A stretch of 64,000 nt of DNA, taken from positions 18,609,880-18,673,879 of the forward strand of contig OZ316895.1 of the NCBI GenBank assembly GCA_973895155.1, read 5' to 3'. Below the pieces are notes generated by a model. The model ran no database searches and was not told the DNA's origin. It saw only the letters and a program-made list of their open reading frames with translations. Below are positions 25,528-56,127 of the stretch, piece by piece; positions within the stretch are counted from its first letter, which is position 1; each line of letters begins with the position of its first letter. The DNA is from Marsupella aquatica (lineage: Eukaryota; Plantae; Marchantiophyta). The position numbers were made by a program, and so were the translations under genes.

Positions 25528-25900
25528 CACTAGAAGAATCCGAGGTGAACTGAGACCGCAATATATGACTCATTTTGGCTCATGTGACTTCATTGTGACT
25601 CAACGTGACTTGACCCACGCTGTGACCCTTGGAGTTGCAAAAGTTGAGACCAAAAAATGGAAGTCACTATTGATACTGGGCTTTGCAACTTGCTTGATAC
25701 CCATTTGTGACTGATCTGTGACTTTATTGTGGAGTCTAGCCTTGTTTCGACGTGACTGCAATATGACTTCAGCGAGTCACATCGTAAGTCACATACATGA
25801 CTTACCCGCATTCAACAACGACTAGCGTGTGACTATTTAGTGTCACAGGAGAGACCAATGGAGACCCTGGCCCGCGTCACACAACAGAACCATTTGGGAC
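25528..25900. repeat. CACTA left TIR and subterminal repeats
   Basis: Dense TGACT/AGTCAC and GAGACC motifs in both orientations next to the TIR. Confidence 0.75.
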
Positions 25901-26382
25901 TCTATATACTCATGTTTATAACTAATAAGGTTCACATGCAAGTTATAACCATGACTAATGAACACAGAGGGACAGTTCATAAGAAGAGAGAGCACTCGAC
26001 ATTACAATACATAGAAACCTGATGTTCTAACTTTAGAAATATAACACATTGAATACAAGAAATGAACATAGCATGAATGACATCCACATGAAACAAAGCA
26101 TCATATAAGCAGATCCTACATAAAACATTCATAAGAATTAAACACAATCACAATCTTGCTAAAAAATGAAGATCATTTGAATTCCAATGGAATAGTTTAC
26201 AATGTGATCAATGTAATTTAGACAAAACAGGAACTCATAATTGATGACTGTAGGATGAGATAACTGAAAGCACATGCATGATACTATGAATCTCCAAGAG
26301 GACATGATTCTTGTACTGTTTCTTGACATCTAAAATCTACATAACATGACTCACACTACAAACAAATAATGGCATGACATTG

Positions 26383-29300
26383 TTATGGATCCTCTATGAA
26401 CTTGCTTGGCCATAATACCAAAGAACCTGCAGCATCTCCAAGTGTCTTTTGAGGAGGATCATCATTTGTGTTTGGAATGGGAAGGACAGCTTTAGGTTTC
26501 ACTAGTAATGTGACTAACACTACTGAATAACCTGGGGGAATCCTCTTGCCATGGAACGTTGTGGAACCAACCTGCACTCTGGCAAATCCTACTCGTGTTC
26601 CACTCTCATCAACAGCTAACAAGCCACTTTGTCCCTCAGCATTAGGTGCTTTCCCCACTTCCACCTTAGATCTTTCTGCCAGCACTGTTCTTGGAGGTTT
26701 GTATGAAACCTTTGACGTGGCTCTGCTCCCACCAGCAGACTTGCTTCGTGTGCGCATGCTTCCTCTCTTCACAGTAGTGAAGCTAGGCTCAGTAGGTTCC
26801 TCTGTTAGGACTGTCACAGTAGCAGGTTCATCACCTGGGAGTGTCATACCAACTAACTCTTTGGTTGGATTTATCTCAACAAGAGGCACACCTGTCATTG
26901 AGAATGATACATTCTGCAAATCATTTATCTCTGCAATGGAGTCAAGATCTACATAGCATGAATCTGGCTCAATGGTATCATTGTCATGCTTGCTGATATC
27001 CTCATTTGCCCCAACATTGATATCATCCACTCCCTTGCCAATGTCATCCTCATCCAAACATGGTTGACTGCCCTCTGTCAAACAAGTTGCTTGTACAGAC
27101 TGCAACTTTGTTGCCTCTAAATTACAGCGAGTATTTGCCAGGTTCTCATACTTCTTCTTTGTAGCACCTGTCTTATTCTCTATGGACACAACAACCACAA
27201 TATATGTTACTGAAAATAACACATTCAACAAACAATGTCAATTCAAACTATACATTTAATAATCATATCCCACACAGTTGTAAAGGCCTTACCTTCAAGC
27301 CTACATGTCGTTGGCATGCCAGAAGAGTGCATCGACTTTGCCACCTCAAGTGGTGATGGTGGAACTCCTGCAGAATTGGAATCAATTTTATCTCTCACCG
27401 ACACAACAGCTTCCATTAATGTCTTGAAGTTCACATGGAACAAGTCAGTCAATGAATTCAAACGTTCATTGATCTCTGGAAGACATGTTTCGACAGCCTT
27501 CAAACGACCACTTATCTCTGTAAGTGAAGATCCACCTCCCTACATGACACAGGGGTATAGGTTCAATCACTCCATATGAAATGTTGGGCAATATATGCAC
27601 AATCAATGTTATATACAGTGTACACCTGAAATTCAACGCAGGTCATTCAATTACCAATCAGAACTCATATAACTTACATGCTTGGAGGATTCAGATGCAC
27701 CCTCTTGAGCCCGGGTGTTCACAATTTCAGCCCTCAACTCTTCTTTTGAAGGGCTTTGCCCCAATTGGGCTTTCTGCACATGCATGGCAAACACAAGTTA
27801 TCGATCAATATTCAGGGAACGTACACTAAAAAACAAAGTTTACATGTAGGGACAGTACACTAAAAAATAGTACATAGTGTAGCATAAATTACATAGCTAG
27901 GCCATTCATTCTTACCAAACGTTTAGCTGTCGGTGCAGTGCCGGTCCTTCCTGTCAGATTAGGGTTCTGAACACTCAACCTGGCCTCGGTCATCTGTGAA
28001 CTCTTCTTTTTTGAAGCATCTGTTACAAAATAAGCTACTAACCTTGCCCACACTTTATCATCACAACTGGCTGGTGGAGGCATATCTGGCTTCTCCCCAC
28101 CTTCCTTCCAAGCCTTATGCATTCTCCACCTCTCTTGCTTGATAATTTTACCTGCTGTACTCTCTAGGCAACCTATGTCCACGCCATCATCACTGCCCAC
28201 ATAATTCCATTTGGCAGCAACATTTTCACATACAGTCTTCCAATCTTTTGGATGCTGTTTTTTAAAATTAATAACACTCACATCTAACCAACGCAATACT
28301 TCAGCTTTCAAATCAGCATGCCATCGGTTCTTGCGAGGACACTCAGCATCCACCCATTGTCTCTCATTCAACTTTACGTTCCCTTTCTTTGTCACCTCCC
28401 CTCGTGCACTGCTCTCGGTAGTACTGGGCGTTGTATTGGCCACCCCTTCATTCACCCTACCTGGGGTTCTGAAGCCACCTGGGAAAATACAATGCCATTC
28501 ATGCTTGAGAACTACATATAGCAGAATGGATGACGACAACATTCAATGCTTCACTTCAAGAAAAATTCTTCAAACATACATACCTGTAGCTCTGCCTGTA
28601 GATGCCTGTGCAGGGACTGCACTCTGAAATTGTTGCGACCCTGGACCACCTGTCCAGCCTAGTACAGGGGCCGGATGATGTCACTTTCTAGGTATGTGTG
28701 TGCAAACATATGTACTGAAAACTAAGTACAAACTGTAGGAAAACAACTGAACATTCACCGACATACCTGTCCCCCTTCCGTGCTGCATCTGCATAGGGGC
28801 ATTAGTGAATACTTGAGTCGATGGTTCGACTGTCCAACCTGCACACATACATTTTCTATCATTATACATGTGCAGAGTCCCCCCCACGTGAATGGACTCC
28901 ACATATAATGAGTTCTTCCATTGCTGACAAGATCAGACATTACCTGCTCCTCTTCCAGCGTTTGTAGGTACTGAATTTTGATATCCCTGCCAATTACCTT
29001 CACCACCTTCCCAACCTTGTTCATTCCACGACCCACCACCATCCTCCCAACCTGGTTCAACCCATGTCTGTCCTTGTGGACATTGGAACTGATCATTACT
29101 AGCATTTGCCCAATCAGGTTGGGCAGAATCTGCATGCAATGGCAGGTGGACAGAATTTCATGTTGTCTGAATCCAATACATCCCAAACAATGTCAAAAAT
29201 TGATATGCAGTCTGAAATTCAGGAGTGCCATGCCTTCACAAAGAACTGGCATATAGATATATACTCACATCCCCACGGTTGAGGTGGACGTCCATACCCA

Positions 29301-30174
29301 CGAGATTGTGGGTTTGGACCTGCTCTGCCTCTACCACGGGCATAACCTAGAGCTTGCCCCCTGCCATAGTATTGGGCACCAGCCTGGGATCTACCACTAC
29401 TACCACCTCGCCAACCTTGATCAGAGGTCAGCCCCCCCTGCTGGTATGGTGCATGCACAGGCTTCGAAGGCAAAACAGAACTGGCAGGACGCTGCATCAC
29501 ATCACCAACTACAATGTCAGGAACTAAGCAAGGTACATATGTGTAGTACTGAACATATGAAACCTCTAAACAAGAGTTTTTAACTCAAAACCTTGTTGGG
29601 AAAACTACTTACATGTTTCTTTTGGGGCTGCTCTGCAATGTATTCATCTTCATAACCCCCATCCTCATCCATTTCCTCTGGAAAATACTCATCATCTGCA
29701 TCTTCTTGTCTAGTGTCTGCACCCACCTGTGCAGCATCAATGTCATCTCCACATTCTGCCATTGTAGGTACGACCTTCTTGCTCAACCTGTCACTCCGAC
29801 GCACAGGCCCAGAGATAGTGCTGGTCACCCTTCTTGCGTACTCCTTTTGTTTCTTTGAAAATGCTGTGGCTCTGCGACATTCCAATATGAGAATACAGTC
29901 ACAATTTCAGTGCCACATTGAACTATTCATGTCACACAAACTCAGCGGAGGGGTGTAGTTGAGAATCGTTCCCTTACAATTCAGCCACATCCTTTTCCAG
30001 ATCCAGTTCTGCGATTTTGGCTTTCACGTATGCTCGTTGTTCCATAGCTTTCCTTTCATACTCACACATCTCTGTGTCACTCTGTTCCATCCTACTGGAC
30101 CACAAAAACATGTCATCTATGGTCACCCCGTATAACACAATGCAACCACAATCACCAGGCATCCATCCATACAT
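26383..30174 (-). CDS. CACTA TnpA/ORF2-like multi-exon gene (exon boundaries approximate)
   Basis: Exon-like ORFs 30174-29974, 29885-29580, 29500-29219, 29139-28933, 28542-27889 (W..L..YF...SSQMTEAR...TGRTG, Ptta/En/Spm-like), 27503-27243 and 27231-26383 (FHGKRIPPGYSVV...LPIP...TLGDAAGSLVLWP, TnpA-type C-terminus); GT/AG sites flank them. Confidence 0.75.
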
Positions 30175-30246
30175 CTGTGTTGCTTCAGAATTACTTTATT
30201 ACACATCCTTCCCCTCACTAATGTCTATGCAAACAATTCACATTAC

Positions 30247-33200
30247 TCATGGCACAGGCACACTGTTGGCATCTGCATCTCTGAATTCGCCTCCTTCAGC
30301 AAATGCATCTACCCTTGTCACAGGAATGAAGTCCCCGCTATCATGAACTACAGGCACTTGGTCTGAACGCCGACGATCAAAGGCACTATGAGAGTGTAAA
30401 TGAAACTCAAGGTTTGATCCTTCCATCCGGCGTTGCCTGGCCTGTTTATGACACACTACACGCCAACCTGGGGAGTCTTCCACATCCAGGAAGAAAGCTT
30501 GCTCCACCTGACTAGGAAACACAAATGGCTCAGACCATTCGGGCAATTTCCCTCTGAAATTGGCCAGCAAGAAACCGTCGTTGTCTCTCTTCATGGTAGC
30601 CCTGTTACCAAGCCAATCCTGCCGCACCCATGAACCTTTCATAAGAATCACAGGACTGGACACCGCCCCATAGTCCAGAGCCCATATGTCAACTAATTCT
30701 CCCACATATCCCATCTCCATCCAGGCCCTGTCGTGATTGTGGCTCTGTTGCTCAAATACAGTGATGAGCCCGCAGTCATTCGTCACCCTGTAGGCACTGT
30801 CACCATCCTTCACTCGGAAGTGATTCCCATATGCTCTCATCCGTTTGTAAGTCTTCACTTTCAGGCTAGGGGCATTAGACAGTAGGTAAACATCTGCATC
30901 CATGTCTGGGTGGGTCTCGTGATGCTCTCTAATTGCCACTCTGATCCACTCCATGAAACCTGGAAAAGTTGTTCCTGCAGTGGGATGGGCCGCCTTCAAT
31001 GACTCATACTCCCTGAACGAACAACCACACAGCATTAGCTTGGGTAAACATGAACAGGCTGAAGGAGAAAACCACACGAACACAACATTTAAGCTCATGA
31101 ACTGGATTATAGCACATGTATGCACTCACTGTATCCAGGGTTCCATCACCACAGTGTTGTGCAATACAAAGTCATGTGCCAAGTCTCTCATAGATATGGT
31201 CAGGTTCTTTGTGGTTGCAGCCCCTTCCAGTACTTCACCTACCACCCCTTCCTCCTCATCAGAATTCCACACCCTGGTCTTCACATGCTCATATTGTGCT
31301 ATGTATTCGGTCAGAAATCCCAGAGTCTCATCCTTGATGTAACCTTTAGCCATGCTTGCTTCAGGTTTGTAATATGTTCTCACGTGACCTTTGAGTAGCT
31401 TCATGTACCGTTCCAAAGGGTACAACCAACGAGCACTCACAGGCCCAAATTGGTGTAGCTCTTCCACAACATGGACAAGTAGGTGGGTCATGACATCAAA
31501 AAATGCGGGAGGAAAATAAATCTCCAGGTCACACAGCACCTGAGCGACATCTTCTGTCAGTTGTGGGAAGTGTGTTTCATCCCAAACCTTCACACAAATA
31601 CGACGAAACACATCACTGAGTCGCATGATCACAGTACGAACAGGCTTCTGCAACAGGCCCCTCAGGCATAAAGGCAACACCTGTTGCATCAACATATGGT
31701 AGTCATGGCTTTTCATACTACCAAGCTTTCTAGTCATGATATGCTTCTTGAAAGCACTGCCATAGTTTGAAGGAACCTTCAAAGAACTCAACCTCTGCAC
31801 AAATAGTTCCCACTCTGTGTCTGTCAGAACATAGGGCGCTTGGTACTTCAAGAGCACATCAGCTCTGTGGGCATGTGGCCTCAACCAAAGATGGGGTTTC
31901 ATTCCCCTCTGTTCAAGATCCAATCTCACTGAACCAGTGTCTTTCTCTCCACACAAGAATCTGAGTAGACTCTCACAAATATTCTTTTCAATGTGCATAA
32001 CATCAATGTTATGTTTGCTTGGCTCAAACTCCTGCATCGTTGCAATGCAAAAGCGTCAGGAAATGCCTCAAGTTTAGTCTCTCTCTTCGAAATGAATGCA
32101 CATGCTCTGAACCAAAACATGTATCCCAATTAGCATCAACTCCAAGAGGCTTACCCTCCAGTACTTGAGCTCCAAGTCCAATATGCTCAGTCTTTTTACA
32201 CCATATCGCTTTATTGGATCACTCACTCCATCTTCCCTGCCCCCTCGTTTGATATAGTCATCCCTCAGTGCTCCCCACTGCCTGATCTCCTCTTTGGTCA
32301 CTCGTGCCGGGGGTCCACGTTGCTCAATCTCATTGCCAAAGTGTGCAATCAGTGCCTGTCTTTCTCTGTAAGGGTGATCTGTCTTCAGAAAACGACGATG
32401 GCCCATGTATATCACTTTCTGCAGGGCTCTGGAGTACTCACTGGTGACATTGCGCCCACAGATAGTACAAGCACAATATCCTTTTGTTGTTTGGCCTGAT
32501 ATCATCCCATGGGCTGGGTAGTCAGCTATAGTCAGAATGACAATGGCTCTAAGGATGAATGGGTTTAACCTCCCAAGCCTCTGTAGGACATCATATGTGA
32601 GAACTCCTTCCTCCCAAAGCTTTCTCAATTCCTCCACTAGGGGAGCCAGAAACACATCTATGTTGGCAGATACAGCACTGTCTGGCCCTGGTATCAGTAG
32701 GACCATCAGAACAAAAAATCGCTTTGTAGTCATCCAAGGAGGAAGGTTATAATTCAAAATAGTTACAGGCCAGCATGAAAATTTGTTGTTCTTGTCTCCA
32801 AATGGGTTTACCCCATCCAATGACAGCCCAAGTCTGACATTCCTCGGCTCAGCAGCAAATTCGGGATACATCTCATCTATGAGTTTCCATTGCCTTGAAT
32901 CTGCAGCATGTCGTTGTAGCCCATCATCACTTTTCTTGTCAGTTGCCCAAGTCATCATCTCCGAGATGGCACGGCTTCTGAACATCCGCTGAAGTCTGGG
33001 AATGAGTGGAAAATGACGAAGTACCTTGGCGGGAACCATAGACTTTCCTGAGTTCCGATACCTGTGCTTCCCACACTTAGGGCATGTCAACGATTCTTTA
33101 TACTCCTTTCTGAAAAGAACATGCCCATCAGGACAGGCATGGATCGAATCATAGTTCAATCCAAGATTAGATATGCATCTTTTTGCCTCGTACATGTTCT

Positions 33201-33978
33201 TGGGCAAAATATTACCATCTGGTAGCACAGTTGTTCGCAAGAATGCCAACAACTCAGAAACCAAAACGTTGGGGACATTGTGGTTGCCGCAAATGTTCAG
33301 GAACATGATGACAAATCCCAGTTTAGAACATTTGCTACCGGGGTACAAAGACTTCCTGCCTTCCTGTATTTGCAGGGGAGAGCCAAACATCCCATCATGC
33401 CCAGGGGTTTCCTGCCCTATCTCAAACTCATCAAGAGGCTCTTCGACAGGGGGCACACTTGCATCTGCAGCCGTATCCTCTTCATTGTCCAGCCCATCAT
33501 GAAATGCATCCAAGTCTTGGAAGATGTCTCTCACCATCTCTTCCACATGAATTCCTTCGTCACGTGGTGCTGCCTGAGCACCATCCCGTTGGAGAGCTGA
33601 CAACCCACAGAGACCAGCTACAACATTTTCAAATGCACCAGGCAGAACCTCACTTGCCCGTCTTGCAGCATTGGCAGCATCAAATTCTAACCTCCACTCC
33701 TCGTCGGAAGAATCTTCCTCTGCAGGATCATTCCAAACTCGATGTCGTGGATCTCTTCCATGAACCGCGATATGCCGCCAAACCTCATTCAGACCCCTGG
33801 TACGGGATCCTTGGCAGATTGCACAAGGACATCTCATCCTACTGGCTCCTGAAAGTCTGGTTCGTAACCTTTCACGCTGCCAAAGCTTATTATCATGGCG
33901 TGATATCCTTGTGGGATGATGCAAAGGCAGTGCCTGTGCCCTGGGCTGGGTCTGGGGAGGGTGGTGACCAGGGTGCAT
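30247..33978 (-). CDS. CACTA transposase TnpD/Tnp2 (three exons; introns about 32154-32032 and 31129-31013)
   Basis: CPC..C transposase-associated motif, IHACP, RNVRLGLSLDGVNPF, YNLPPW, DYPA, DVMHIEKN, KSHDYH, FPPAFFDVMTHLLVH, WLYPLER and EPFVFPSQVEQAF; the predicted GT-AG introns restore one frame. Confidence 0.95.
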
Positions 33979-34411
33979 TGTAACAGGCTGGGAGCTCTGC
34001 AGTCATGGACAGCAGTGAACAAGGATGCCTAATGGTGGTATTTGTGTTCCATATATCCCTGACTGTATCTGCCAAAAGAGTTAACATAACGTGTACTAAA
34101 TTCTCACAAACCCTAAACCACCCCAAAAGAAAAAAACAGGTTCGCAAGTAGTGTACCTATTGTCAAGTGAATGACACAAAATTTCTAAATGTTGGAGGGT
34201 GTCACCACCTCCTCCGCTGTCCTCAAATGTACCGCCTCTGCATGTACGTTTACAGTGACACCCCCAGGCAGTAGGAAACAACAATCCGCCAACAGTAAAA
34301 TAAGCCCAACTGCCACCAACCATAACAAGGTACATTAGTTCAAAGATCACATTTATTTCAATGATCTGATTTATACAAAAAAACTTGTGTCCAAACTGAT
34401 GCTACTACTCC

Positions 34412-35290
34412 TCACTCTGATTCAGAATCGCTAATGACCCATTCCTCACTTGTTGTCTCATAGTCCTCTCTGTAAGGATCCTGACCCTTCCGTGGCCAGG
34501 CCTCAAAAAGATCATAGTCCATTGGGTTTTGACGCTTCCCAGCTGCTACTGATTCCACAAGCCAAGCATATGAAACCACAAACACATTATGGGACATGAC
34601 ATAAAAGCGAATGTCTCCCTTCCCAAACTTGCGGCAGGCTTTGGGATATGACTTAGTAATGACATGAGTGGTGTCCTCTGTTATATTCTCCTCCACTGTC
34701 CCACCTAGGTCAAGCACTGTGGACTTGTACACTTTGCACTTAACCTCTCCAATTCCCGCCTCCACAAATACCATGCTCAGCCCTTTCAGAATGGGGGTTG
34801 GTTGCTTCGTCTCCTCAGCCAACATACTCTTCAGCCTTGTAGAGCTCTGTCCTTTGTTGAGTACAGGTCCATATTGGAGATCAGCAAGCCGTGCCTTTGC
34901 TTCCCAGACTTCTTGTTCAGCCCAAGCTGATGCAGTAGCTTCTTCATCCTCCCACAACTCATATTGCTCAGTATCCTGTACAATCTTATGTGCTATGGAA
35001 TCTGTGATCCAAGAGGCCTCAACTACTTTTAGGCCTTGCTTAGTAATTGCAGAATTCATGTAGGACCATGACCACTTCTTTATCACTGATAGCCATGTCC
35101 CTGCAACAACATGTGTAGTCTCTGGAGTGATGTCCTGAACTACAGTGCCATGGAGCTCAGAGAATCGTTTCTGTACAGTTGGCCAATGCACTTTGGTCAA
35201 CCCATGCTGGCCATGGACCAAAATCGCTCTGACCCCTGTAAACACTGCTGGGTGGTCACACTTTCTACGTTTACCAGGCTCCATGTACAC
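34412..35290 (-). CDS. Tandem BRCT-domain protein (292 aa), CACTA cargo
   Basis: Two repeats with BRCT hallmarks (F/L.G..., GG/HG-TV...TTHVV/I, VV..W..DS/ES...Y.L); basic N-terminus KRRK; intact, intronless ORF. Confidence 0.85.
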   Translation of the reverse strand: MYMEPGKRRKCDHPAVFTGVRAILVHGQHGLTKVHWPTVQKRFSELHGTVVQDITPETTHVVAGTWLSVIKKWSWSYMNSAITKQGLKVVEASWITDSIAHKIVQDTEQYELWEDEEATASAWAEQEVWEAKARLADLQYGPVLNKGQSSTRLKSMLAEETKQPTPILKGLSMVFVEAGIGEVKCKVYKSTVLDLGGTVEENITEDTTHVITKSYPKACRKFGKGDIRFYVMSHNVFVVSYAWLVESVAAGKRQNPMDYDLFEAWPRKGQDPYREDYETTSEEWVISDSESE

Positions 35291-35876
35291 ACACCCTACG
35301 TGATGACAGTGAATTTTGGAAGAATGGGTTCACCTGACAATACAAGGACAACAAAATTCCTGCTTTTTGAGTTGATCTGGCCCACTGGTGCTCAGGTCCG
35401 ATTTTGATAGGTACAAGGGATATGTGAACAATACGTACTAGGCACCTGCACGGATGCAGGACATTGTTTGAATATATACTACAAAATCCATATCCGTGGT
35501 GAAATGAAGTGCAACCAACTTGTCATGGCACATACATATTTTGTTGTAAAGGAGGATACATTCAATGACAAACTTATAGGGCAATTTGATTAATTGCATG
35601 CCTGATAATTTATACGCTTACAACTTAGAAGTCCTGTTTTAATTTAGCAGTGTGATGAAAGTGTTTATGAAAATGACCACTCAGCCTAAATACTTCCAAG
35701 AAGGCTTGTAAGGATAAGTTTGTATAGGCATGTACCCAGCCACTGACGCCAGAGCACAAGATAAGTGCTGCCTATATAAACTCGCCTACCCAACTCCTTT
35801 TCAAAATTGGAATCTCTGCAATCTCAAAAAATAGTACATCCACATCAGGTGCACTGTGCATGTACAATGTTCAGCT

Positions 35877-36557
35877 TCACAGCCAAGATATGTGATCTCT
35901 CACAGGAGTGCGCGAGGTAGGATCAATGGCATGGCGATGACAATAAAATATCCATCGATCAACACCATGTGCAGAGTGATCATAGATTTCTCTGTCACAA
36001 GCATAACCCTCTGCTTGATGATCTTTCAGACAATGATAGTGCCACATAGTGGGACACCTAGCACAGTGGACTATGTCAGTCCAGTAGTCATCATCATGCT
36101 CACCACATGCCTTGCACCTATGAAGTGGGCAAGCTGTGGCATGAGCAGGCAAACACTCAAAACAGAAAAATCTCACACAAAAACGGTCTGGACATTTCCT
36201 AACATTTGCTGCAGCATCAACAGAGCCCTCATAGGACCCCAACTTCCCACACTGTGCACACTTAGCCTGCTTCTCCAAACAATCAGTGCACATCCAGTCT
36301 CCCTGGTGTGTTGACGGGAGGCCCACCCCTGGACAGTTGTTTTCTGCAGCAAGGTCAGACTCCGGGTTGAGGTGGAAATGCCTCATGCAAGGGCCCTCAC
36401 AAATGACCAGGCCCCCACCATCGTCACAAATGGCACAACAATGAGCTGCCTTCTGGAAAATCTGACTTGCAGAGAAGTTAGTAGCATCTGCCCCAAGTAC
36501 ACCTGTGTTTCTCACCTCTGTCACACGCTTTTTGGCTTGAATTTTAGGCCGTGCCAT
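35877..36557 (-). CDS. EDM2-like PHD finger cluster protein (226 aa), CACTA cargo
   Basis: CAICDDGG...CEGPCMRHFH...C..C.....C..CGKLGS...CPLHRC..C...C.RCP..WH..CL...YC..H.ID....TPVRDH matches the PHD region of plant EDM2 as recalled; no other EDM2 domains. Confidence 0.88.
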   Translation of the reverse strand: MARPKIQAKKRVTEVRNTGVLGADATNFSASQIFQKAAHCCAICDDGGGLVICEGPCMRHFHLNPESDLAAENNCPGVGLPSTHQGDWMCTDCLEKQAKCAQCGKLGSYEGSVDAAANVRKCPDRFCVRFFCFECLPAHATACPLHRCKACGEHDDDYWTDIVHCARCPTMWHYHCLKDHQAEGYACDREIYDHSAHGVDRWIFYCHRHAIDPTSRTPVRDHISWL

Positions 36558-36568
36558 GCCTGCGCATG

Positions 36569-36712
36569 AGATAGACTCTACAATTTAGCAGACTGCACAG
36601 AAAGTAATATATATTTAGCATTTAAGGTACAAAGGCATTTAGATAGACTCTACAATTTAGCAGACTGCACAGAAAGTAAAATATATTTAGCATTTAAGGT
36701 ACAAAGGCATTT
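36569..36712. repeat. 72-bp tandem duplication (2 copies, 1 mismatch)
   Basis: AGATAGACTCTACAATTTAGCAG...AAAGGCATTT at 36569-36640 and 36641-36712. Confidence 0.92.
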
Positions 36713-37327
36713 GCTACTGCAATGAATTGGAATGGCCACACAAGGATGCAGAGCACACATACTTTTGGTATGTTGAGCCCACACACAAAACTGATCCCCT
36801 AATACAATTTCTCCACCAACACCTCAATTTTAATTGTGGCTATGATTCACCAAAGGAGATCTGCAACAACATTTCATGCATTTGAATCACATACAATAGT
36901 CGTGACATGTAAAACAGGCATTCTTCGAAGAGGATTGGTATGAAGCAGTGTCATAAGGGTTGAAATTTATACATCCTAAATAGGTTATGATAGTGGCTGA
37001 GACAAATAAGTGAGGCATAAATCATTTTGCATATTATCACATGGCCCATTAATTCATTCAACGTTGCAATGTTCACCAGGTTAAAGCAGTCATGAAAGCA
37101 GTCTTTCAATAGAGACTTTTATGCGAGTTTGCTAGCCTCTTAAATTAGGATATTTTGCTTAGTGCAGGCATAATAGGATATAAGTTATATACTGTTGACC
37201 CTAAACCCTGGACCCAAAATTGCTCATACATCAAAATTTTAAGTAAATATCCTCTGTGTTGAAGTCAGAGTGTTAAGCTATAGGTCAATGGTATCTGGTC
37301 TGTGCATGCGGTGTGACAAGTGGTCCT

Positions 37328-37777
37328 CTAGAGCATGTGATCCAAACATGTGTAGACACCAAAGTCACCGGTGGTGGGGTCTGGGAGGGCAGGACAAGTG
37401 ACATCACCAGGCACACTGCAGGATGGCGAGTGGTTCCAAATGATACATTGTGCTCTATGCAAAAATCGGCATCCAAGAGAACGGTCATCCAATTCTGGGC
37501 CAGAAGCCCTACAGGCAGGACAGTCATATTGGCAACTGTGTACACACCCTTGGCACCTAATTTGTGGCGGGTCATGTACAAGAGACACAAATACCAAGGA
37601 TGTCGGGAAGGGTACTGAAGCAAGTAGAGGCCGGCTGTAGTTGTTCCTGGAAACAACAGGGTACTCAAAGTACCATGCAGACTGGGCTGGAAGGATCCCA
37701 AGTCTGACATACTCAAGGCGCAACATCTCTGCCTTGCGTGCAAGTCGCACATGTTCAGCGTTGCGGGTCCTCACCAT
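37328..37777 (-). CDS. Hypothetical Cys/His-rich protein (149 aa), possible CACTA cargo
   Basis: ATG-initiated open frame in a GC-richer island, co-oriented with the other cargo ORFs; CQGC-x3-C-x3-CPAC cluster; no family recognised. Confidence 0.4.
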   Translation of the reverse strand: MVRTRNAEHVRLARKAEMLRLEYVRLGILPAQSAWYFEYPVVSRNNYSRPLLASVPFPTSLVFVSLVHDPPQIRCQGCVHSCQYDCPACRASGPELDDRSLGCRFLHRAQCIIWNHSPSCSVPGDVTCPALPDPTTGDFGVYTCLDHML

Positions 37778-38772
37778 AAGTGTTGCTTTTGTTGTGATGT
37801 CCTCTGTTCACGTCCTTTGATGAGCAAGGTGAGCAGGAGGTCGACTTGCCTCGCCAACAGCAACCACCTAAACTAATCAGTTCCCACTCAACTACAGGTC
37901 ATAGTATACACATAGCATGAAACGTGCATAGTACATATTTGATTCTGAGTTTATGAGTTTCCTAAGACAAAGAGCTTGGTGATAAACCCATATTCTCGAT
38001 GGACATGTATATCAATCGTATTAAAATCCTGTTTTTTCATCCAGAAAGACCGAAAGTCTCACCTTGCAGGTTGCAGCAGAGAGAAAATTCACTGGTTGTC
38101 GTGTTGTGCAAGTGAACCTCCACTGATGCCCCCGGTGTAGCCCCTCAGATGCAGGTGACACTTACCAACTCCCAAGTTGCCTGGTCTAACAGAAAATGCT
38201 TATATCTTCAGAACTTTATAGAGCAAGTACATGATCACATACTTCTGGATCTATTCATATTTGGAACTCTTGCCAACTACAACTCCCATTATGCACAAGC
38301 TCACATCAACAGAGAAAAATACAGAATGCATACTTACTATGGCTCTAAGCACCTTCACTACCTTGTTGAACCCAGTCCTGAAGTCTTTTCAGCGTGTTTG
38401 TTGTGCTGTCTCCTTTGGCACCCAACACCTTAGTCCTTGATGTAACAGAATGCGATTTTACAAGTTAGATGCTTTGGAACCTTCTATGGTCTTAGCTGAA
38501 TTGATGTCATCGTAAGTGGTGAAAGACAAGGAAGACGAAAGCTGGTTGAAGAGCTGTGGACAACACACTAGCATGAAGTGCTTCAACCAATCCACTGCCA
38601 AACGGAACTCTTACACAGTCACATTCTTTCAGTAAACAGAAACTCAATCAAACTTCATAATCAAAGTACAGACTCTGAAGGACCAAAGGAGGATGTTGTG
38701 AGTTTCTCTGTTGTTTAATGTGTTACCCTTCTAGTTTCGAAGTTAGCAAATGCTGAATAATGTGTCTACCAG

Positions 38773-39112
38773 ATCTTCGAAAAGAAGCCCACCACAATTA
38801 AGAACTTTGGTATCTGGGTGAGGTATCAGAGTTGTACAGGTTATCCCAACATGTACAAGAAATATTGTGATACCACATTAAACAACCACACAGCAGATGT
38901 ATGATGAGATGGCTTCTTGTCATAGAGTTCGGTTCCCTTGCATCCAGATCATCAAGACTACGACAGTCCCTGTCTCTCTGTGCAAGCGAGAAAGTACCAA
39001 GCAGTTCCATGATTCAAAGATCAAGTTCCCCTTGACGTACCGCAAGATTCAACCTCCATCGCGAAAGCTAAAGACGACTTACAAGGCCACCAAGCCCAAC
39101 ACATTTGTTTGA
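38773..39112 (+). pseudogene. RPL18A: Captured last exon of 60S ribosomal protein L18a (eL20), frameshifted
   Basis: [27 protein letters not shown]...DTTLN / [20 protein letters not shown]...[18 protein letters not shown]...[15 protein letters not shown]; preceded by an AG acceptor. Confidence 0.93.
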
Positions 39113-40951
39113 GTAGTGCGGGTGTAGGTTCCCAATTTTGAAACAATTTGGCTCATTTTATGTCCCGAGGGACTCCAGGAGTTTATGTATTGAGTTTCTA
39201 GGTCAAGATGCTTAATATAAGGAAATTCAATTATCACCTCGTTCCCAACTTCTATTAATTGAATATACACAAGCTGGAAGCAAGAAGACAAGCCACAATC
39301 TAGCATCTTAGCCAAACACAATCGTCCCGACAAAGCAAAACTCAGCTGGACAGAAGTCACTCGGATCCACAAAAAATTGAAGATTCACCTCCAAGCCGGA
39401 GGCCGATCACTTCAGTACAGCAGCTTCTGGACGGAACAAACTCTGCTCAGCCCCACAAAAACACAAATGTTAAGGCTCCAAGTCAGAGCTCACAAACAGA
39501 AACTCAGATAAATAACATTCAAAATCTGTCCAGGTTTGTGCAAAGTGTACATATTCATTCTTCTGGAATGAACACGCAATGCATACATCGCCTAGACACA
39601 GTCATTATAAATCATTGGGCAATTGGGGACCACTAAGCAGGTGTGTTCCTATTTCGAGGCTACAAGAAAGGATAGAGTGACACCAAACTGAAGAGTACAC
39701 CAAAAGAAAAACAGCAAGAACCAAAGTCAATCATGTGTGGATATTTTGCACATGGGAAGTTCCCCTGAAGAAGCACCAGTTGCTAACATTGTCACCCGAA
39801 CCACACCCAGTTTATTACCTCAATGTCTTCAGCCTCAATATCCAATCCTCAGCCCCCTGGTGCTTCCGTGTTTGTTCTGAAAATTTCTGTGATGAAATAA
39901 TTATTCAATACATTCAATAGCAAAGAGAACTCAATCACAAAAGAAAAATAGTTAGTGTGAATGCTAATTTCTCAACACTTAACTAAATTCAAACCACCAA
40001 TTCAAGTAGTAAGTTTCAAAAACTTGCCTTTACATGAAGAGAAACCAATTGGCCATGCATGTTACTAAAGCAATAAACAAATAATTAGGCTCAACCCCGG
40101 GCTCAACACACAGGCAAACTACTCGAAACATGCTGCTGAGAAGTAACATTTTTTGAATGTCAGACTATGTGTAAGTGCCATGATCGTGCTCCTACGTTTC
40201 ACAAGGAGGGCTGGCCCGAAAGGGAGAAGCAACAATGTGGAGTCTATACACGTAGCACAAATCCCAGTTTAGAAGGGTGGATGAAGTTCAGACAAGAGTT
40301 CAGAACTTGCCATTTGAGATTGCCAATCTGAACTTCACATTCAGACAGGACTTCATCCAGTTCAGGAGTTCAGATAGGAGTTCAGACAATCTGAAGAGGA
40401 CTTTGGACTTGAATGAGGGACAGCGTGGCCATATAGTTATCCTTGTGGCCTTCAGCTGCGTGTCTCAGGCTGAATTTCACTTTCCAGTTTCGAGAGTTCT
40501 GAAGGTCTAGTTTTAGTAACTTCCTCCTGACTCGACTTGGGAGCATTCTCCCTATTTGCTAGCTTGTAGTTAGCTTTGACTCCTGTGAGCTTAGTTGACG
40601 ACCCTCTTGAGATATTAACAATTAGAACAAACACAAGTTGTCAAGACAGATTCCACCGGAGCAAAAAGTCCAAAATCAGGTGAAAGAAAACCTAAGGAAA
40701 GTCCATAAGAACGAAAGTAGGAAGGCAGGTGCACGGGCCACCGAGAAAAGTAAAGGATGCATGTGATTAGTGGGGAGGGATCTTAGCAAAAATAGGGGAA
40801 AGCAAGGGAACTTGCTGCTAAAATCAGCTGAACGATTGCACGGTTCCTATAAATTTAGTGGACCTTAAGGCCGTCTGTTCAGCCCCCCACCCCATTGCCA
40901 GAGCACGGGGCACAAGGCATGTTCTGATACAGGGAGGAGCAAAACAGTCAT

Positions 40952-41997
40952 GTCAAGCAAGAAATGTGGAGAGACCAATCAGTAAGCAAAAATAGGGGAG
41001 AACATACATACATGATCAGCAGCAGCAGGAAACAAGAAAGATGATTTTGGGTGGCATCTTAGGGTCGGGGACACCACTGCAACACCGGGACTTAGGATAT
41101 GAGTTGTTCTTAATCTGCTAGTAGCATCCGGCAGGCCGGCGACCCATGGCAAAAGGGCAGAGCAACAATCCGCTAAAACTACCGAGTCTCACCTTTGCGC
41201 TACTGACTGTCACCTTTGTCCAAGGTAGCTAGTAATAGCAAGTTGAAGTCCCGCTCCAAGTTGTCGGCTTCCACTCCAAGCTCCCTAAAAGATTGTGGCC
41301 TCAGGTCCAAGTCGTTAGCTCGCACGCGCAACTCCCTAAACCTACACACAGCGGAAGCTTAGCTCACCAACAACTTGCAGAAACAATGACCTCCCCTCTG
41401 AAACTGATAAAAACACCTGAATACAAATAGTGAAGCACGAGGACAGAACAGGGAGAAGCGTTTTGCAGTTTGGGACGACAATGCTAGGAGTGTATACACT
41501 TCGGGCAACAGGGAGGTCCAATAATAGTTTGAATCTGACGGATGAAGCTCTAGGCGAATGAGCTCCAGGAGATTGGGTGCATGATTGAGTAGGCAATTGT
41601 AACAGCAGGCACCTGGCGATTGAAGGAAGCAGCATTCGGCAATGGACCTAGGCAGCTCGCGAATTTTGCTCAGCAGCGATGTCACCTAGACCCTAAACAC
41701 GCAATGCATACATCACCTAGACAACTATACTTGCAGCCACGAGGTGAGTCCGCGATAGGGGATTGAAGGAAGCAGCAAGTCAAGCAAGAAGCGTGGAGAG
41801 ACCAATCAGTAAGCAAAAATAGGGGAGAATAGACATACATCAGCAGCAGCAGGAAACAAGAAAGATGATACTCTGTTCCATCTTAGAGTCGGGGACACTA
41901 CTGCAACACCGGGACTTAGGATATGACTTGTTTTTAAACTGGAGATAGCATCCAGCAGGCCGGCGACCCATGCCAAAAGGGCAGAGCAGCAATCCGC
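40952..41997 (+). repeat. Diverged ~220-bp direct repeat (40952-41173 and 41778-41997)
   Basis: Shared GTGGAGAGACCAATCAGTAAGCAAAAATAGGGGAGAA...GCAGGCCGGCGACCCATG...AAAAGGGCAGAGCA.CAATCCGC. Confidence 0.88.
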
Positions 41998-43539
41998 CAT
42001 GTAGCGATAGGCGAGAGCAGCGATTACGACGATGAAAGATGGTCAAAGCTGAAGCAAAACCCCTAAAGATGCAGCTTGGCCATACTCTCTTTCCTCACCT
42101 CATAGCGCTAGGCATTCAACCTCCCTCTTCAATGAACCTCACAACAGCTTGAAGGTCGATAGATTTTACCTCGTCTCCTGAGCAGAAACGTCTGCATTAG
42201 CTGAACAGAGCCCGGAACAGAGCTATCGCATTTAGCCTCCCGACTCCAAAATTGAACGCAACACAACCTCCAACTCCCAATGGCAGCTCAGTAGGTTGAT
42301 CAGCTCGGTCAATGCAGGTCAGTCGACCTCAATAGCCACACTAGAAGCTCACCGCAAGTCACTCAAAGGTCAGACTAGAAGCTCCGCCGCCTTCACACCG
42401 TAGCAAAAAACAATGAGACCAATATCGAGCAAGGCGACCCTGTTTGAATATTTGGCGACCATCAGGCTCCACCCCTCCTTTCTCGCTACCGTTCCCCCAT
42501 GTGATGGTTAAGCTTCTGAGGACACAATCAATCGCACAAATGTAGCTTAAAGCAGGACCTCACTAAGCAGACTATCGGTTAGGACCTTATAGACATAGAG
42601 ATAGATAGGTCAATGCAACCTTACTTGGGCCGATGCAGCATGTCTCTTCACAATGTGAAGCAGCGCAGCATTCCTCCACCTAGCTCGCAGTGATCCTCCG
42701 CCTTGCTTGCAGTAACCAGCCTCCGCCTAGCTAGTTTGCACTGTCACGGCTGCAACTTTTTGTGCAATGACTTGGCCCTCCTACCAACTACGAGCTCCCA
42801 AAAGTATGTCGAGCAGATGTACACTCAGGCACCACCTCGTAGAGCTCAACTCCAAGTCGGCAGCTCTCACTTGAAACTCAATAGCAGCTTAGCTCACCAG
42901 CAGGTTGAAAAGCGACAATGGACTCCCCTCAAAACTGATTGGCAGACCTCCACACTGACGCTCGTAGCAGGCCCAATCCTAAACACATTTGCACCCTAAA
43001 GTCCAGTCGCGCTCAAACACTTTCAAACGACCCTGCAGGAAGTTCGCGAAGAGTGCAGCTGGAATGAAGGTCGTCGACTCCCAATTTCCCTCGCAAAACC
43101 AACCTCTGCGGCACACTGACCCTGAACACTTAGGGCAAGTAGTACCCCCAAAATCTCTCGCAAAACCAACCTCCAAGGTACACTGACCCTGAGGGAAAGT
43201 AGTACCCCTCACATGTGGGCAGCCATCGAGTGACTTAGCAAACAGGTTGGTTTGGACATAAAAGAACCAATGCAAATGACTTAGCAAAAAGTTCAATGTG
43301 GGGAGAGTGCACTTTGGTCAAGAACAAGGCCAAATATAGTCAGGTATGAATCCACATTATAAGTGAAAGTACCCACCATTCTGATGAAAACCCCCATATT
43401 TATACCCATTATATTTGGACTTATTGAACCATGAGTGTGCAATATGTAGTTGCACCGGGAGTTGCATATTAGGGATTGGCATCCGAAATTGGCTAATGGG
43501 GTATGCATGCTGACGGAATTTTAAAAAATGATGTCCAAT

Positions 43540-43770
43540 TCATATTGCACTATTGTGGAGTAACTAACATAACTTACCTATTTCTTACTTACTAGTGTTA
43601 CAATAGCGACATTGGATAAAGTTGTAAGCATGACTTCCCACAACCTCACCAAAACTTAGTTGGTATGATGTAACTAACATGACACCCACAAACTTGGAGT
43701 CGCATATTTATGAAGGTCTCGCACAAGTCACATAGGGGAGGGTCTCAGAATGGGTGGTTTTCTTCTAGTG
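43540..43770. repeat. CACTA right subterminal region and TIR
   Basis: TAACTAACAT twice, AGTCAC/GGTCTC motifs, ends TTCTTCTAGTG. Confidence 0.7.
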
Positions 43771-46757
43771 TTGCGTGCCTCCTCTAGTTCCTTCTGGGCT
43801 TCCTCCCGTTCTTGTTTCAAGGTAGTCCTCTCCTCCTGGGTTGCTTTTAGCTCCTTGTCGAGCTCTGCAATGATGACAGACTCCATCTGGTTCATCTTGG
43901 CGTAAGTCTGTTCGAGCATCTCGTCCTTCTCCCTTAGGTCGGCCTTGAAGCTGGCCGTCAGGGACGCAAGCTCCTGCTGCAGCACCATAATCCCTTGATA
44001 GGATTTCCCTAACTCGGCCTCCTTCTGCTCAAGGGCTCCGCGGATTTTCTCGAGCTCCCCTTTCAACGCCCATTCCTTTCTTTGGGTCTCCGCCATGGCC
44101 CGGCTGTTGGCTGTTATGTGGGCCTCCTTTGTATTCTTCAGCTCTTGCTTCCACTTCTCCCTCTCTTTGATCGTGTCGGCCAACTCTTCCTGCGTCTGAG
44201 TCAGTTTATCCTTGATATTCTGATTATCAGCCTGCGCGGTGTCCAACTGCCCCTGCATGATGTTCAGCTCATGTCGTTTAATCCGCAGTTCATCTTGGGC
44301 TTTCTTGGCCGCCCTTAGATCTTCAATCTCGGCTTCCATCCTCCTAAGCCGCCGAATGACCTCGTCCTTCTTGCTTCTCTCTAAAGCCACCGCTTCTTCT
44401 AATTGGTGCTTCTCCAACTGCTCCCTATGGAAAAAGGGTCCTACCTCCAACTCCTCTCCAAAGATGCCGAGCGCAAGTTCCCCACACATCTCACCATACT
44501 CCATGGCTCTATTCTTAGCGTAGGTGGAGTAAGTAGAAGTGATCGGCATCGCCCATCGCGGCCTCTGCTCCCAAGCCGTCCTGCGGATCTCTTCAATCGT
44601 GGCTAGAGGTTTGCTTCCTTTTTTGGCTAGCCGCCTGATGTCCTCCGGCCAATCTCCTCCTGGTAAATCCTTTTCCTTAGCCAGGGCGGCCTCCTCCTCC
44701 TGCTTGATTCGCTCCTGAAATTCCTGCACCGTCTATTTTATGCCGTCGAAGCTCGGGGGAGCAACATCTGGTGGGGGAGACTCAGGGCTACTCTGCTGGT
44801 TGGGGTCCCCTCGCACTACCCTTGGAAGTGTGGGGACAAACCGGCCACAGGTCCTTACTCCTGGAACGTGATGGTCCGACCCATAGCCAGAATTATCATG
44901 GCTGCAGTCCTCCACTGCCTCCTCTACCTCTTGGACGTCCGGCTTCTCCCTCTCCTCTTCGTCGGTAGGAGCTTCAGGCAATTCTGCCTCAAATTCGGAG
45001 CTTGAGGTTCCCACGTACATTCGAACACCTGGCTTGGATTCCGGCCTGATTCTCTCCTTGTCTCCAGCAAAGGGGTTTTCTCTTGTGAGCCGGTGTAGGC
45101 CTACCTCTGTAGTAGTGTCCTGCATTGTTGCCGTTGCCGTTGTTGTTGCCGATGCCGATTTCTTTTCTTTCTCCAGTAGTTTCAGCAGACTCTGCATGCC
45201 TGGTTGCTGCATCGGCAAGTCTTCCTTCTTGGGCCTAAACACCTGCTCGATCGTAGGACTAACAGGTGGTTGAGGCTTCTCAGCCAACGGCCTCGGCGTT
45301 GGAGCTTCCTCGGCTGCCCTTACCTGCAGGGGAAGTACCGGGGCAAAAGTCTGACCTCTGGCATACCGGCACAACAGCGGCATGTGATAGCCCAGCCGCG
45401 ACACGCTCCCCATGCCGATTACCTGCTGCTCCTCCTTTAAGATCTTCTTCAATTGGTTGAGGAGGTACCCGTTGTAGTCCCGGCTTGGGTCTGGCCTTTC
45501 TGCCAGATAGACCTGTGCCTTGCCGATCTCTGCCCTCGGCAAGTTACAATGCATGGTCACCCGCAAGAAGTCGATCATCTCTCCTATGTGCGGGTTGGTG
45601 CAGGTGTTCCGGAAGAAGCCATTCTTCGTTGATGGCCCGGGGAATGACCGGAACTCCTTGTCAGGCAAGGTCTTCCTGGTATCAACTTTGGTCTTATTGC
45701 CTATCGGCAGGCCAAACACTTCGGCAATTACCTTGGGAGTAAGATAGAAATCCTTCCCATATATCCTCGTGCAATTGGTCTCGGGTTCCCATGACCCCAC
45801 GAATTCTAATAGGTCTGACTCCGGTACCTCCGGGTTCAGCCATGGTAATCTTACAAAGGCCTCCAAGCCGGATCCGGCCATGAAGCCTTGGTACTTCTTG
45901 GTCTGCATGGCCGTAAAGCATGCATCCTCCTCCCGTGCAAAATGTAGTTGCACCTCCACCGGTAGGGTTGCCGCCCAGCCCTTCCAGGTGTCATCCCTGG
46001 TTGGAATGGCCTTGATGGGATCGACCTCCTCCTCTTCGGCTTCTCCCTGCCTCCTGCTCTGCTGCTCGGCTGGCTTCTTTGGTGCCGCCGACCTCATTCT
46101 TTTTGCCGGGGTGGCTTCATCGTTGACGGCTCCCTTCCTCTTCATCTCTGCTGCCGTGGAGGTTTCTCCTAGCACCATTGCCTGGGTCCACCTTTCCGTG
46201 CTACCCTTTAATTCCCAATGTATGTCGTTGCAGTTCTTGATGGCCTCTCGGATGCCGACGACGCTTTCGTTGCAAAACAGAAGATCGTCGAGTTGATTGG
46301 AAGTAGGCGTCCACAGGAACTCGTCCTTGATGAGTTCGCCTCCTAAGAAAGCCGTCTTCTGCAGCTCCCACAATCGAGCGAGCTCCTGTCGTTCTCGAGC
46401 TGCCCTTTCTGATTCCTCGTCCTTGTAAGTCTTGATGTACTCAGTTGCCCGTTCGAACAGGCATCCCCAGAAATGTGCCGCTTGATTGACGTTGCTCATA
46501 CCCTCCTTAGGTCGATCGTCGGTATCTACTCTCTCCCCGAGTGCTTGCCTAAGCAGCTGACAGTAGTTGGCCTCCCGTAGTCGTCTGCCTAGTTCGTGCT
46601 CGCAAATGAGCCACCATCTCCTGCAAGCGCTCCTTACCCCTCTCCTCTGCCGGTCCTTCTTCCCGTTGATCCTTCCTAGCCGCCGACGCTTAATGCGCCC
46701 TAACCCTAATCGGGTTTTCACCCTCAGCCTTACCTCCGGCCTCGGCCCGGGTTCCAT
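43771..46757 (-). pseudogene. LTR-encoded ORF, copy in C 5' LTR (one stop at 44733; split by CACTA, ends at 24879)
   Basis: 674-aa and following in-frame segments; the frame continues on the other side of the CACTA element. Confidence 0.9.
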
Positions 46758-46872
46758 GGTTGCCCCTAATTGTTTATATTTTCCTTGTTTTGTCCCTATA
46801 CTAAGGTGTTCCTAGGGTGCCTTCCTGCTTTACCCACTTAACCGGCCGAGTGATTCCTGTCTAGGCATCACA
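43771..46872 (-). repeat. 5' LTR of element C, proximal part
   Basis: Starts TGTGATGCCTAG at 46872; colinear with the B 5' LTR. Confidence 0.92.
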
Positions 46873-49691: not shown

Positions 49692-49738
49692 TCCCTACGC
49701 TTCCTTTCTAACTTCATATCTCACGGCTTAAGAAATGC

Positions 49739-49756
49739 CCCCTCCATCTAGCGCCA
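49739..49756 (-). other. Primer binding site (tRNA-Asn type) of element B
   Basis: TGGCGCTAGATGGAGGGG, 4 nt from the LTR end at 49761. Confidence 0.8.
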
Positions 49757-49760
49757 AAAA

Positions 49761-54441: not shown

Positions 54442-54446
54442 AACCT

Positions 54447-55822: not shown

Positions 55823-56127
55823 CCAGGAATCATTAGGCCAGTTTAAATAGTAAAATCAGGAGTGTACCCTAGGAAACACCTTAGTATAGTAACAAAAATA
55901 GGGAAATATAAATAATTAAGGTGACTATGGAACCCAAGCCGAGGCCGAAAGTAAGAACGCCGGGGGAGGGAACACGATTAGGGTTAGGGCGCGCTAAGTA
56001 CCGACGGCTATGGGTAACCAACGGGAAGGAAGACCAGCCAGGGGGGTAAGGACCGATCGCAAGGAATGGCGGCTCATTTGCAAGCACGAGCCAAGCGAAT
56101 GACTACGGGAGGCCAACTACTGTCTGC
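55811..56127 (+). repeat. Start of the 3' LTR of element A (interrupted by element F)
   Basis: Homologous to the first ~315 bp of the B and C 5' LTRs; similarity ends abruptly at TGTGACGCC. Confidence 0.88.

What the first reader, a model, noticed from the sequence alone, without database searches (positions are those of the whole stretch)
35877..36557. Stand-alone EDM2 PHD cluster inside a DNA transposon
The 226-aa ORF has only the Cys/His PHD cluster and stops right after TPVRDHISWL, where the EDM2 PHD region ends (TPVRDHVKFP in Arabidopsis, from memory). It lacks introns and the EDM2 methyltransferase-like domain. It keeps the metal ligands despite strong divergence elsewhere, which suggests long-term selection. 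It could act as a dominant-negative or a targeting reader.
Basis: partly seen in the sequence, partly recalled or inferred. Interest (0 to 1): 0.8.

Follow-up and report, generated by a model that had tools for sequence, protein, structure and literature searches.

The report
Transposon-borne EDM2-type histone-reader mini-protein
An intact plant CACTA transposon carries a small gene made only of the zinc-finger cluster of the plant chromatin protein EDM2 behind a short basic tail that resembles the start of histone H3; it belongs to a conserved family of such mini-proteins and likely helps the transposon against host silencing, although expression and binding are untested.

Summary
Observation confirmed. 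The 226-aa ORF (minus strand) is an uninterrupted EDM2/NSD-type PHD cluster. It lies inside an 18.2-kb CACTA element (25528-43770; 11-bp TIRs, TTG duplication, open TnpD), next to a two-BRCT ORF. It is not a one-off fragment: 17 relatives (34-86% identical) form one clade (100/100); in 11 of the 14 members with the end motif the stop follows within two residues. It keeps 24 of 26 host-conserved Cys/His columns. Differences between element copies lean synonymous (13 of 27; p 0.001-0.013). New points: the family is remodelled (His-to-Cys swap, ~20-residue deletion, loss of the acidic residues before finger 1), and 21 of 26 members carry an N-terminal [AST]-R-x-K-x-x-[AS]-K/R motif in register with H3 residues 1-9. 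Corrections: methyltransferase-less and stand-alone EDM2-like host genes exist in liverworts and grasses, so the loss may predate capture. Transposon context is shown only for this subfamily. No RNA or binding data. Best reading: a transposon-kept chromatin adaptor or decoy (0.45). New variant of a known kind; interest 0.62.

The parts
25528..43770 (-). CACTA/EnSpm element, 18,243 bp, inserted in a Ty3/gypsy-type retroelement copy
   Evidence: 11-bp TIRs, TTG target duplication, empty sites in paralogous copies; joints skipping 18,246 nt in runs X1 and X3
35877..36557 (-). 226-aa stand-alone EDM2-type PHD cluster (P0001)
36528..36554 (-). N-terminal basic motif, residues 2-10 (ARPKIQAKK), in register with histone H3 1-9 (H3 pattern recalled); could equally be a nuclear localisation signal
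   Evidence: motif in 21 of 26 family members, directly after Met in 11; local shuffles mean 0.6, max 5
36569..36712 (-). 72-bp tandem duplication holding acceptor-like sites just upstream of the PHD ATG
34412..35284 (-). 290-aa ORF with two BRCT domains, between the PHD ORF and TnpD
   Evidence: Pfam BRCT E 2e-13, two stretches
30247..33978 (-). TnpD-type transposase; predicted three exons (33978-32155, 32031-31130, 31012-30247) give an open 1163-aa frame
   Evidence: Transposase_21 E 2e-70, DUF4218 E 5e-28, DUF4216 below cut-off; one of many open splice solutions, chosen by site consensus
26383..28542 (-). probable exons of a TnpA-like gene (further exons likely up to about 29950; not modelled)
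   Evidence: Transposase_24 E 1.5e-4 at 27889-28542, below cut-off; no Pfam hit at 26383-26898
37328..37777 (-). 149-aa Cys/His-rich ORF upstream of the PHD ORF, unidentified
   Evidence: listed; no usable Pfam or Atlas hit
38761..39112 (+). broken, intronless ribosomal protein L18a fragment (passive cargo)
   Evidence: Ribosomal_L18A E 1.3e-5; split over two frames

Best explanation
The ORF is an intact EDM2-type PHD-cluster gene inside an intact CACTA transposon, likely captured long ago from an EDM2-like host gene and kept by selection as an accessory protein that likely acts on chromatin to blunt host silencing of the element. Shown: position in the element, open frame, a family of same-sized relatives, conserved ligands, synonymous bias among copies, conserved basic N-terminal motif. 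Inferred: it is made from a spliced transcript with a non-coding leader; the basic tail takes it to the nucleus; the three zinc fingers dock on nucleosomes or a chromatin protein. Without the RFD and methyltransferase-like parts it would occupy or divert the H3K9me2-linked machinery rather than carry out EDM2's job. The H3-like tail may add a decoy or self-binding switch (least certain step).
For: Clade of 17 stand-alone proteins, 100/100, pairwise identity 34-86%. Stop within two residues of the end motif in 11 of 14 members that have it. Conservation begins at a Met with unrelated sequence upstream; in L001 in-frame stops lie upstream of the ATG. Among the 40 best-supported of 76 copy differences, the PHD part has 13 synonymous of 27 (expected 0.21-0.27; p 0.001-0.013), none at a conserved Cys/His column, and no indel reaches 20%. 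The L18a fragment in the same element is broken, whereas PHD, BRCT and TnpD frames are open. Near-identical contigs at similar depth lie on TnpD and on the PHD ORF in run X1, consistent with a standard part of a multi-copy element. Precedent: EDM2 binds H3K9me2 and affects over 2,000 TE loci (PMC7529245, passages); plant transposons encode anti-silencing accessory proteins VANC and TnpA (bioRxiv 10.64898/2026.08.24.746577, passages and section 6).
Against: No functional data. Transposon context is shown only for the window's own subfamily; the distant members (34-55% identical) have no context here and could be host genes. Stand-alone or methyltransferase-less EDM2-like host genes exist (Marchantia MPTK1_4g03050, 280 aa, with a similar RPKMKASK motif; Setaria, Eleusine, Leersia, Miscanthus proteins of 287-386 aa). 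Finger 1 lost the acidic residues before its first Cys (0 of 16 against 106 of 111), so H3 reading may be changed or lost. EDM2 lowers silencing marks at some loci and raises them at others (PMC7529245, passages), so the direction of a competitor's effect is not predictable. The selection count rests on a selected half of the variants and mixes subfamilies. Two acceptor-like sites, 2 and 20 nt before the ATG, leave an in-frame upstream exon possible.
Confidence: 0.45

Rival explanations
1. It is a targeting adaptor of the transposition complex: the PHD cluster tethers TnpA/TnpD to a chosen chromatin state and the BRCT protein calls in repair factors, much as chromodomains steer chromovirus integration (recalled).
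For: It sits in one array with a BRCT ORF, TnpD and TnpA-like exons. This copy landed inside a retroelement in a window full of retroelements.
Against: One insertion site in a repeat-rich window shows no preference. No link to TnpA or TnpD was tested. The nearest predicted splice sites do not give an in-frame PHD-BRCT fusion (read).
Confidence: 0.2
2. It copies EDM2's RNA-processing role for the element's own benefit: it helps transcription read through the methylated, multi-ORF interior so that the distal TnpD and TnpA exons are made.
For: EDM2 promotes full-length transcripts across H3K9me2-marked TE sequence (PMC7529245, PMC9910501, passages). The PHD, BRCT and TnpD ORFs each have acceptor-like sites just upstream, as if fed from one leader.
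Against: The protein has only the fingers; the RFD and methyltransferase-like regions are missing. YAG sites of this quality are common and no chance control was run.
Confidence: 0.13
3. It is passive cargo: a small host gene picked up recently and amplified with the element, its conservation reflecting selection in the host.
For: The element does carry junk cargo (L18a fragment). Host stand-alone EDM2-like genes exist. Distant members lack context.
Against: No family member is a named gene of an annotated genome among those looked up. Many members are broken or partial, L001 by a frameshift. The synonymous bias is seen among multi-copy variants about 13% apart.
Confidence: 0.12
4. It is the last exon of a longer spliced protein, for example joined to the upstream 149-aa Cys-rich ORF.
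For: Acceptor-like sites 2 and 20 nt upstream of the ATG are in open frame.
Against: The strongest acceptor-like sites (35 and 107 nt upstream) are followed by an in-frame stop. The family conserves a Met at or near the motif, and L001 has in-frame stops upstream.
Confidence: 0.1

Closest known systems
EDM2 / ELP1 (Arabidopsis ENHANCED DOWNY MILDEW 2; AAE complex)
   Same: Same atypical PHD repeat and end motif; 61 of 181 aligned residues identical to the EDM2-like hit P0046; 24 of 26 conserved Cys/His columns kept.
   Different: No RFD, acidic regions or methyltransferase-like domain; His-to-Cys swap at 132 in 17 of 17; finger-2 spacer 7 residues against a host median of 27; no acidic residues before finger 1; transposon-borne.
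Methyltransferase-less EDM2-like genes of liverworts (Marchantia MPTK1_1g03210 and MPTK1_4g03050, Calypogeia CAM6087769.1) and short EDM2-like genes of grasses
   Same: PHD cluster at or near the C-terminus; the best full-cluster outside hits (P0024-P0026); P0068 and P0024 hold an RxKxxA-K motif upstream of the fingers.
   Different: They keep the FYH ligand and the finger-2 insert and form their own clade (98/100); a union with the stand-alone family is neither shown nor rejected.
NSD1-3 PHD1-3 cluster
   Same: Best solved relatives by profile (NSD2 E 2e-10, NSD3 E 9e-10); Pfam models of this cluster hit in order.
   Different: No SET or PWWP domain; the NSD alignment has a 12-residue gap in finger 1 and stops before the EDM2-type end motif.
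Transposon anti-silencing and accessory proteins (VANC of VANDAL, TnpA of Spm)
   Same: A separate accessory gene inside an autonomous DNA transposon, proposed to act on chromatin.
   Different: Those are sequence-specific regulators, and TnpA derives from the transposase (bioRxiv 10.64898/2026.08.24.746577); this one is a host-derived zinc-finger reader with no DNA-binding domain recognised.
Pack-CACTA gene capture (PMC13317346, passages)
   Same: Host-derived sequence inside CACTA ends; the L18a fragment fits this.
   Different: Here the element has an open transposase and the captured gene is whole-domain, remodelled and under apparent purifying selection.
Histone-mimic motifs (G9a/GLP automethylation sites, PMC9768651 passage; influenza NS1, recalled)
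   Same: A short Lys/Arg motif patterned like the H3 tail in a chromatin protein.
   Different: Only a sequence pattern here; no modification or binding shown; none found on a plant transposon protein in my searches.

Membership tests
CACTA/EnSpm transposon (host element) | terminal inverted repeats beginning CACTA | tested here: met
   11-bp TIR at 25528 and 43770
CACTA/EnSpm transposon (host element) | 3-bp target site duplication | tested here: met
   TTG on both sides; single TTG in two paralogous empty sites
CACTA/EnSpm transposon (host element) | TnpD transposase (Transposase_21) | tested here: met
   E 2e-70; open spliced frame possible
CACTA/EnSpm transposon (host element) | TnpA-like gene and subterminal repeats | tested here: inconclusive
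   Transposase_24 below cut-off; only short imperfect repeats near the ends
EDM2/ELP protein family | repeat of atypical PHD fingers | tested here: met
EDM2/ELP protein family | N-terminal RFD region and methyltransferase-like ELP domain | tested here: not met
   226 aa, PHD models only; NPPF motif absent. So EDM2-derived, not an EDM2
EDM2/ELP protein family | nested in the EDM2 clade of a PHD tree | tested here: inconclusive
   inside the plant EDM2-like group in both trees (99/96; 87/85), but AU does not reject a place with the NSD-like outgroup, p 0.32
EDM2/ELP protein family | binds H3K9me2-bearing tails and joins the AAE complex | not testable with these tools
   needs binding assays
NSD methyltransferases | SET and PWWP domains beside the PHD cluster | tested here: not met
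VANC/TnpA-type anti-silencing factor | sequence-specific binding to cognate elements with loss of methylation | not testable with these tools
   needs expression and methylome data
Pack-CACTA cargo | non-autonomous element carrying gene fragments | tested here: not met
   element has an open TnpD; the PHD gene is a whole open domain cluster
Histone H3-tail mimic | H3-like residue pattern in register | tested here: met
   21 of 26 members; consensus A-R-x-K-x-x-A-K-K; pattern chosen after seeing the alignment, H3 pattern recalled
Histone H3-tail mimic | free N-terminal Ala after Met removal | tested here: inconclusive
   directly after Met in 11 of 21, including the window's protein; 2 residues in for 6, 6-7 residues in for 4
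Histone H3-tail mimic | modified or bound by H3 writers or readers | not testable with these tools
   needs peptide assays

The most novel reading that the evidence does not exclude
A CACTA lineage of non-seed plants has built a chromatin countermeasure from a host silencing-pathway gene: a histone-H3-mimic tail fused to a remodelled EDM2 reader. The tail soaks up or is gated by the host's H3K4/H3K9 writers and readers while the fingers hold it on chromatin, and a captured BRCT pair sits beside it as part of one host-derived toolkit. This would be a transposon-encoded histone mimic.
Probability: 0.2. Interest if true: 0.88.

Novelty: new variant of a known kind. Interest (0 to 1): 0.62.

Why it matters
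The plant anti-silencing factors I read about (VANC, TnpA) are sequence-specific regulators, and TnpA came from the transposase. A transposon that keeps a stripped-down copy of a reader from the host's own H3K9me2 pathway would be a different strategy. It also gives a small, soluble, naturally minimised EDM2 PHD module, for which no solved sequence relative closer than NSD2/3 turned up. The H3-like tail can be tested with a few peptides. If it proves to be only a nuclear localisation signal, the finding remains an undescribed family of transposon accessory proteins.

Tried and rejected
No whole genome is held, so copies and syntenic host genes could not be counted. Sequencing runs: no RNA holder listed; this says nothing on expression. 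Complex prediction of residues 2-31 against 28-226: no answer, score 0.01; not evidence either way. The monomer model (mean pLDDT 69; residues 1-27 under 50) gave only generic PHD matches (Foldseek best E 1e-4, JADE1 PZP; VIA best Z 4.6). Search for longer relatives with P0001 alone: none, weak evidence. Context for distant members: one 1.5-kb metagenome contig (L001), none in viral contigs, one weak bacterial match that I set aside as chance (L002, 32% over 71 residues). phmmer of P0001 against PDB: 0 hits. The apparent stop at codon 134 is an artefact of scoring singly three changes carried by one contig. Contig depth was not used as a copy number. Rows left out of the trees: partial or frameshifted members (P0015, P0016, P0023, P0032, P0045, P0127, P0133, P0151, P0154, P0159), near-copy P0018, and several partial host rows; 22 of 86 ordinary host rows were sampled. 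Those fragments were counted as family by profile score and eye in the 26-member motif count. Literature: nine searches listed no paper on an EDM2-type PHD gene in a transposon; one search gave one paper, on edm2 mutants. PMC4203584 is not held (title seen in a reference list only). Earlier findings: none.

Full report
Observation. The minus strand of 35877-36557 is one open frame of 226 residues ending TPVRDHISWL. Pfam finds three NSD-type PHD models in order, each under its curated cut-off. The ESM Atlas places it nearest a plant cluster of such proteins (score 0.92). A profile of 15 relatives finds 736 proteins at E up to 0.001; beyond the family the best 150 are mostly EDM2-like (domains; names for 20 looked-up hits).

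The element. The ORF lies in a CACTA element at 25528-43770 with an 11-bp terminal inverted repeat and a TTG duplication; two paralogous copies of the interrupted retroelement in the window show the empty site, and contigs of runs X1 and X3 join across it. On the minus strand the order is: about 5 kb without long ORFs, a broken L18a fragment on the plus strand, a 149-aa Cys/His-rich ORF with no identification, the PHD ORF, a 290-aa two-BRCT ORF, TnpD (E 2e-70) and TnpA-like exons. With consensus splice sites TnpD reads open for 1163 residues (one of many open solutions). Five runs from three studies and three coded organisms hold the PHD stretch. In X1, contigs of about 1,500-1,950 depth with 0-2 differences lie on TnpD and on the PHD ORF alike. 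That fits a standard part of a young multi-copy family; it is not a copy count, and no listed contig bridges PHD and TnpD.

A family, not a fragment. Searches gave 5, then 15, same-sized relatives and more fragments. Seventeen form one clade at 100/100 (10 of them again under a mixture model), 34-86% identical. Of 14 members with the end motif, 11 stop within two residues. Conservation starts at a Met, upstream extensions are unrelated, and L001 has in-frame stops before its ATG. A stand-alone protein is therefore likely, although two acceptor-like sites 2 and 20 nt before the window's ATG are in open frame. None of the seven members looked up besides P0001 is a named gene of an annotated genome, and several are broken, L001 by a frameshift. 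The limit: only the window's subfamily has a known transposon context.

Selection. Of 26 Cys/His columns conserved in at least 85% of 116 host rows, P0001 keeps 24, swaps one His for Cys (17 of 17 members) and has Ala at one. Among copies, 40 of 76 differences were listed; 27 fall in the fingers, 13 synonymous against an expected share of 0.21-0.27 (p 0.001-0.013). None touches a conserved column and no indel reaches 20%. Two single contigs carry internal deletions, so dead copies exist. The sample is selected and mixes subfamilies.

Remodelling. The spacer in finger 2 is 7 residues in 15 of 15 scorable members against a host median of 27; acidic residues precede finger 1 in 106 of 111 host rows and 0 of 16 members. 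By general PHD knowledge (recalled) that patch helps bind unmodified H3K4, so the family may not read what EDM2 reads.

The tail. The first 30 residues are otherwise unalignable, yet 21 of 26 members carry [AST]-R-x-K-x-x-[AS] with K/R at position 8 or 9. With a near-identical pattern the count was 20 of 26 against a mean of 0.6 and a maximum of 5 in local shuffles, and 0 of 122 host rows had it in the same window. The consensus A-R-x-K-x-x-A-K-K lines up with H3 residues 1-9 (recalled). It follows Met directly in 11 of 21, including the window's protein. Against over-reading: the shuffles show conservation in one family, not mimicry; the pattern was chosen after seeing the alignment; a localisation signal would also be basic; in 10 of 21 the Ala/Ser is not N-terminal; two liverwort host proteins carry a similar motif internally (P0024, P0068); and many algal, liverwort and lycophyte EDM2-like proteins themselves begin M-A-R, so part of it may be inherited.

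Origin. The best full-cluster outside hits are liverwort EDM2-like proteins without the methyltransferase-like domain (P0024-P0026); three of this group end 2-3 residues after the same motif, and Marchantia MPTK1_4g03050 is itself a 280-aa stand-alone cluster. Grasses have short EDM2-like genes too. So the missing domain may have been lost before capture. The tree cannot decide: AU p is 0.49 for a union with the liverwort clade, 0.13 with P0068 alone and 0.32 with the NSD-like outgroup. That the host is a non-seed plant, perhaps a bryophyte, is a weak inference from these hits. Host intron positions were not tested, so capture through RNA is unproven.

Mechanism. EDM2 has two and a half atypical PHD repeats and a methyltransferase-like domain, binds H3K9me2, promotes full-length transcripts across TE sequence and affects over 2,000 TE loci in both directions (PMC7529245, PMC9910501, PMC3632883; passages). 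Plant DNA transposons encode accessory anti-silencing proteins (bioRxiv 10.64898/2026.08.24.746577; passages and section 6). I commit to a nuclear chromatin adaptor or decoy that blunts silencing of the element (0.45). Rivals: targeting of the transposition complex (0.2), help with read-through of the element's own transcript (0.13), passive cargo (0.12), exon of a longer protein (0.1). Every step beyond sequence conservation is inferred.

Novelty. Gene capture by CACTA elements and transposon accessory proteins are known (PMC13317346, passages). Nine literature searches listed no EDM2-type PHD gene in a transposon and no transposon-encoded histone mimic; the library lacks most subscription papers, and one relevant preprint's supplements are closed. 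Other papers seen as passages: PMC9768651, PMC4788410 (references only), bioRxiv 10.1101/2022.09.21.507229. Verdict: real, a new variant of a known kind, interest 0.62; the histone-mimic reading has probability about 0.2 and would deserve 0.88.

Noticed in passing
window 34412-35284 (-): Two-BRCT ORF inside the CACTA element. By recall both repeats resemble the N-terminal BRCT of plant DNA polymerase lambda; not tested. PDB gave only weak BRCA1 matches (E 0.007).
   Followed up: partly
window 37328-37777 (-): 149-aa Cys/His-rich ORF with an overlapping 155-aa frame; no Pfam or Atlas identification. Its bin has the highest summed contig depth inside the element in X1-X3 apart from the ends, a hint only.
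   Followed up: partly
window 38761-39112 (+): Intronless, frameshifted ribosomal protein L18a fragment in the element's leader region.
   Followed up: partly
window 36569-36712: 72-bp tandem duplication of the acceptor-like region upstream of the PHD start.
   Followed up: partly
run X1 on window 25651-38019: A second subfamily about 13% diverged in the PHD ORF has contigs of the same depth as the first; summed depth is higher over 25651-27603 and 35416-38019 than over TnpD, hinting at a derivative or distant element that keeps the PHD region.
   Followed up: no
proteins P0024-P0026, P0029, P0035, P0040, P0081, P0095, P0107: Full-length EDM2-like proteins of liverworts, Selaginella and an alga begin M-A-R-(T/V/A), whereas the common long type begins M-A-S-S-D-D: an H3-like start in host EDM2 itself is possible.
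   Followed up: no
proteins P0055, P0064, P0065, P0033, P0017: Grasses have short EDM2-like proteins (287-386 aa) of basic N-terminus plus PHD cluster, apparently a separate origin of a similar architecture.
   Followed up: partly
window 40949-41173 and 41776-41997: 225-bp direct repeat, 88% identical, in the element's leader region.
   Followed up: no
window 381-25478 and 43771-59238: Several copies of Ty3/gypsy-type retroelements with long extra coiled-coil-like ORFs besides gag-pol.
   Followed up: no
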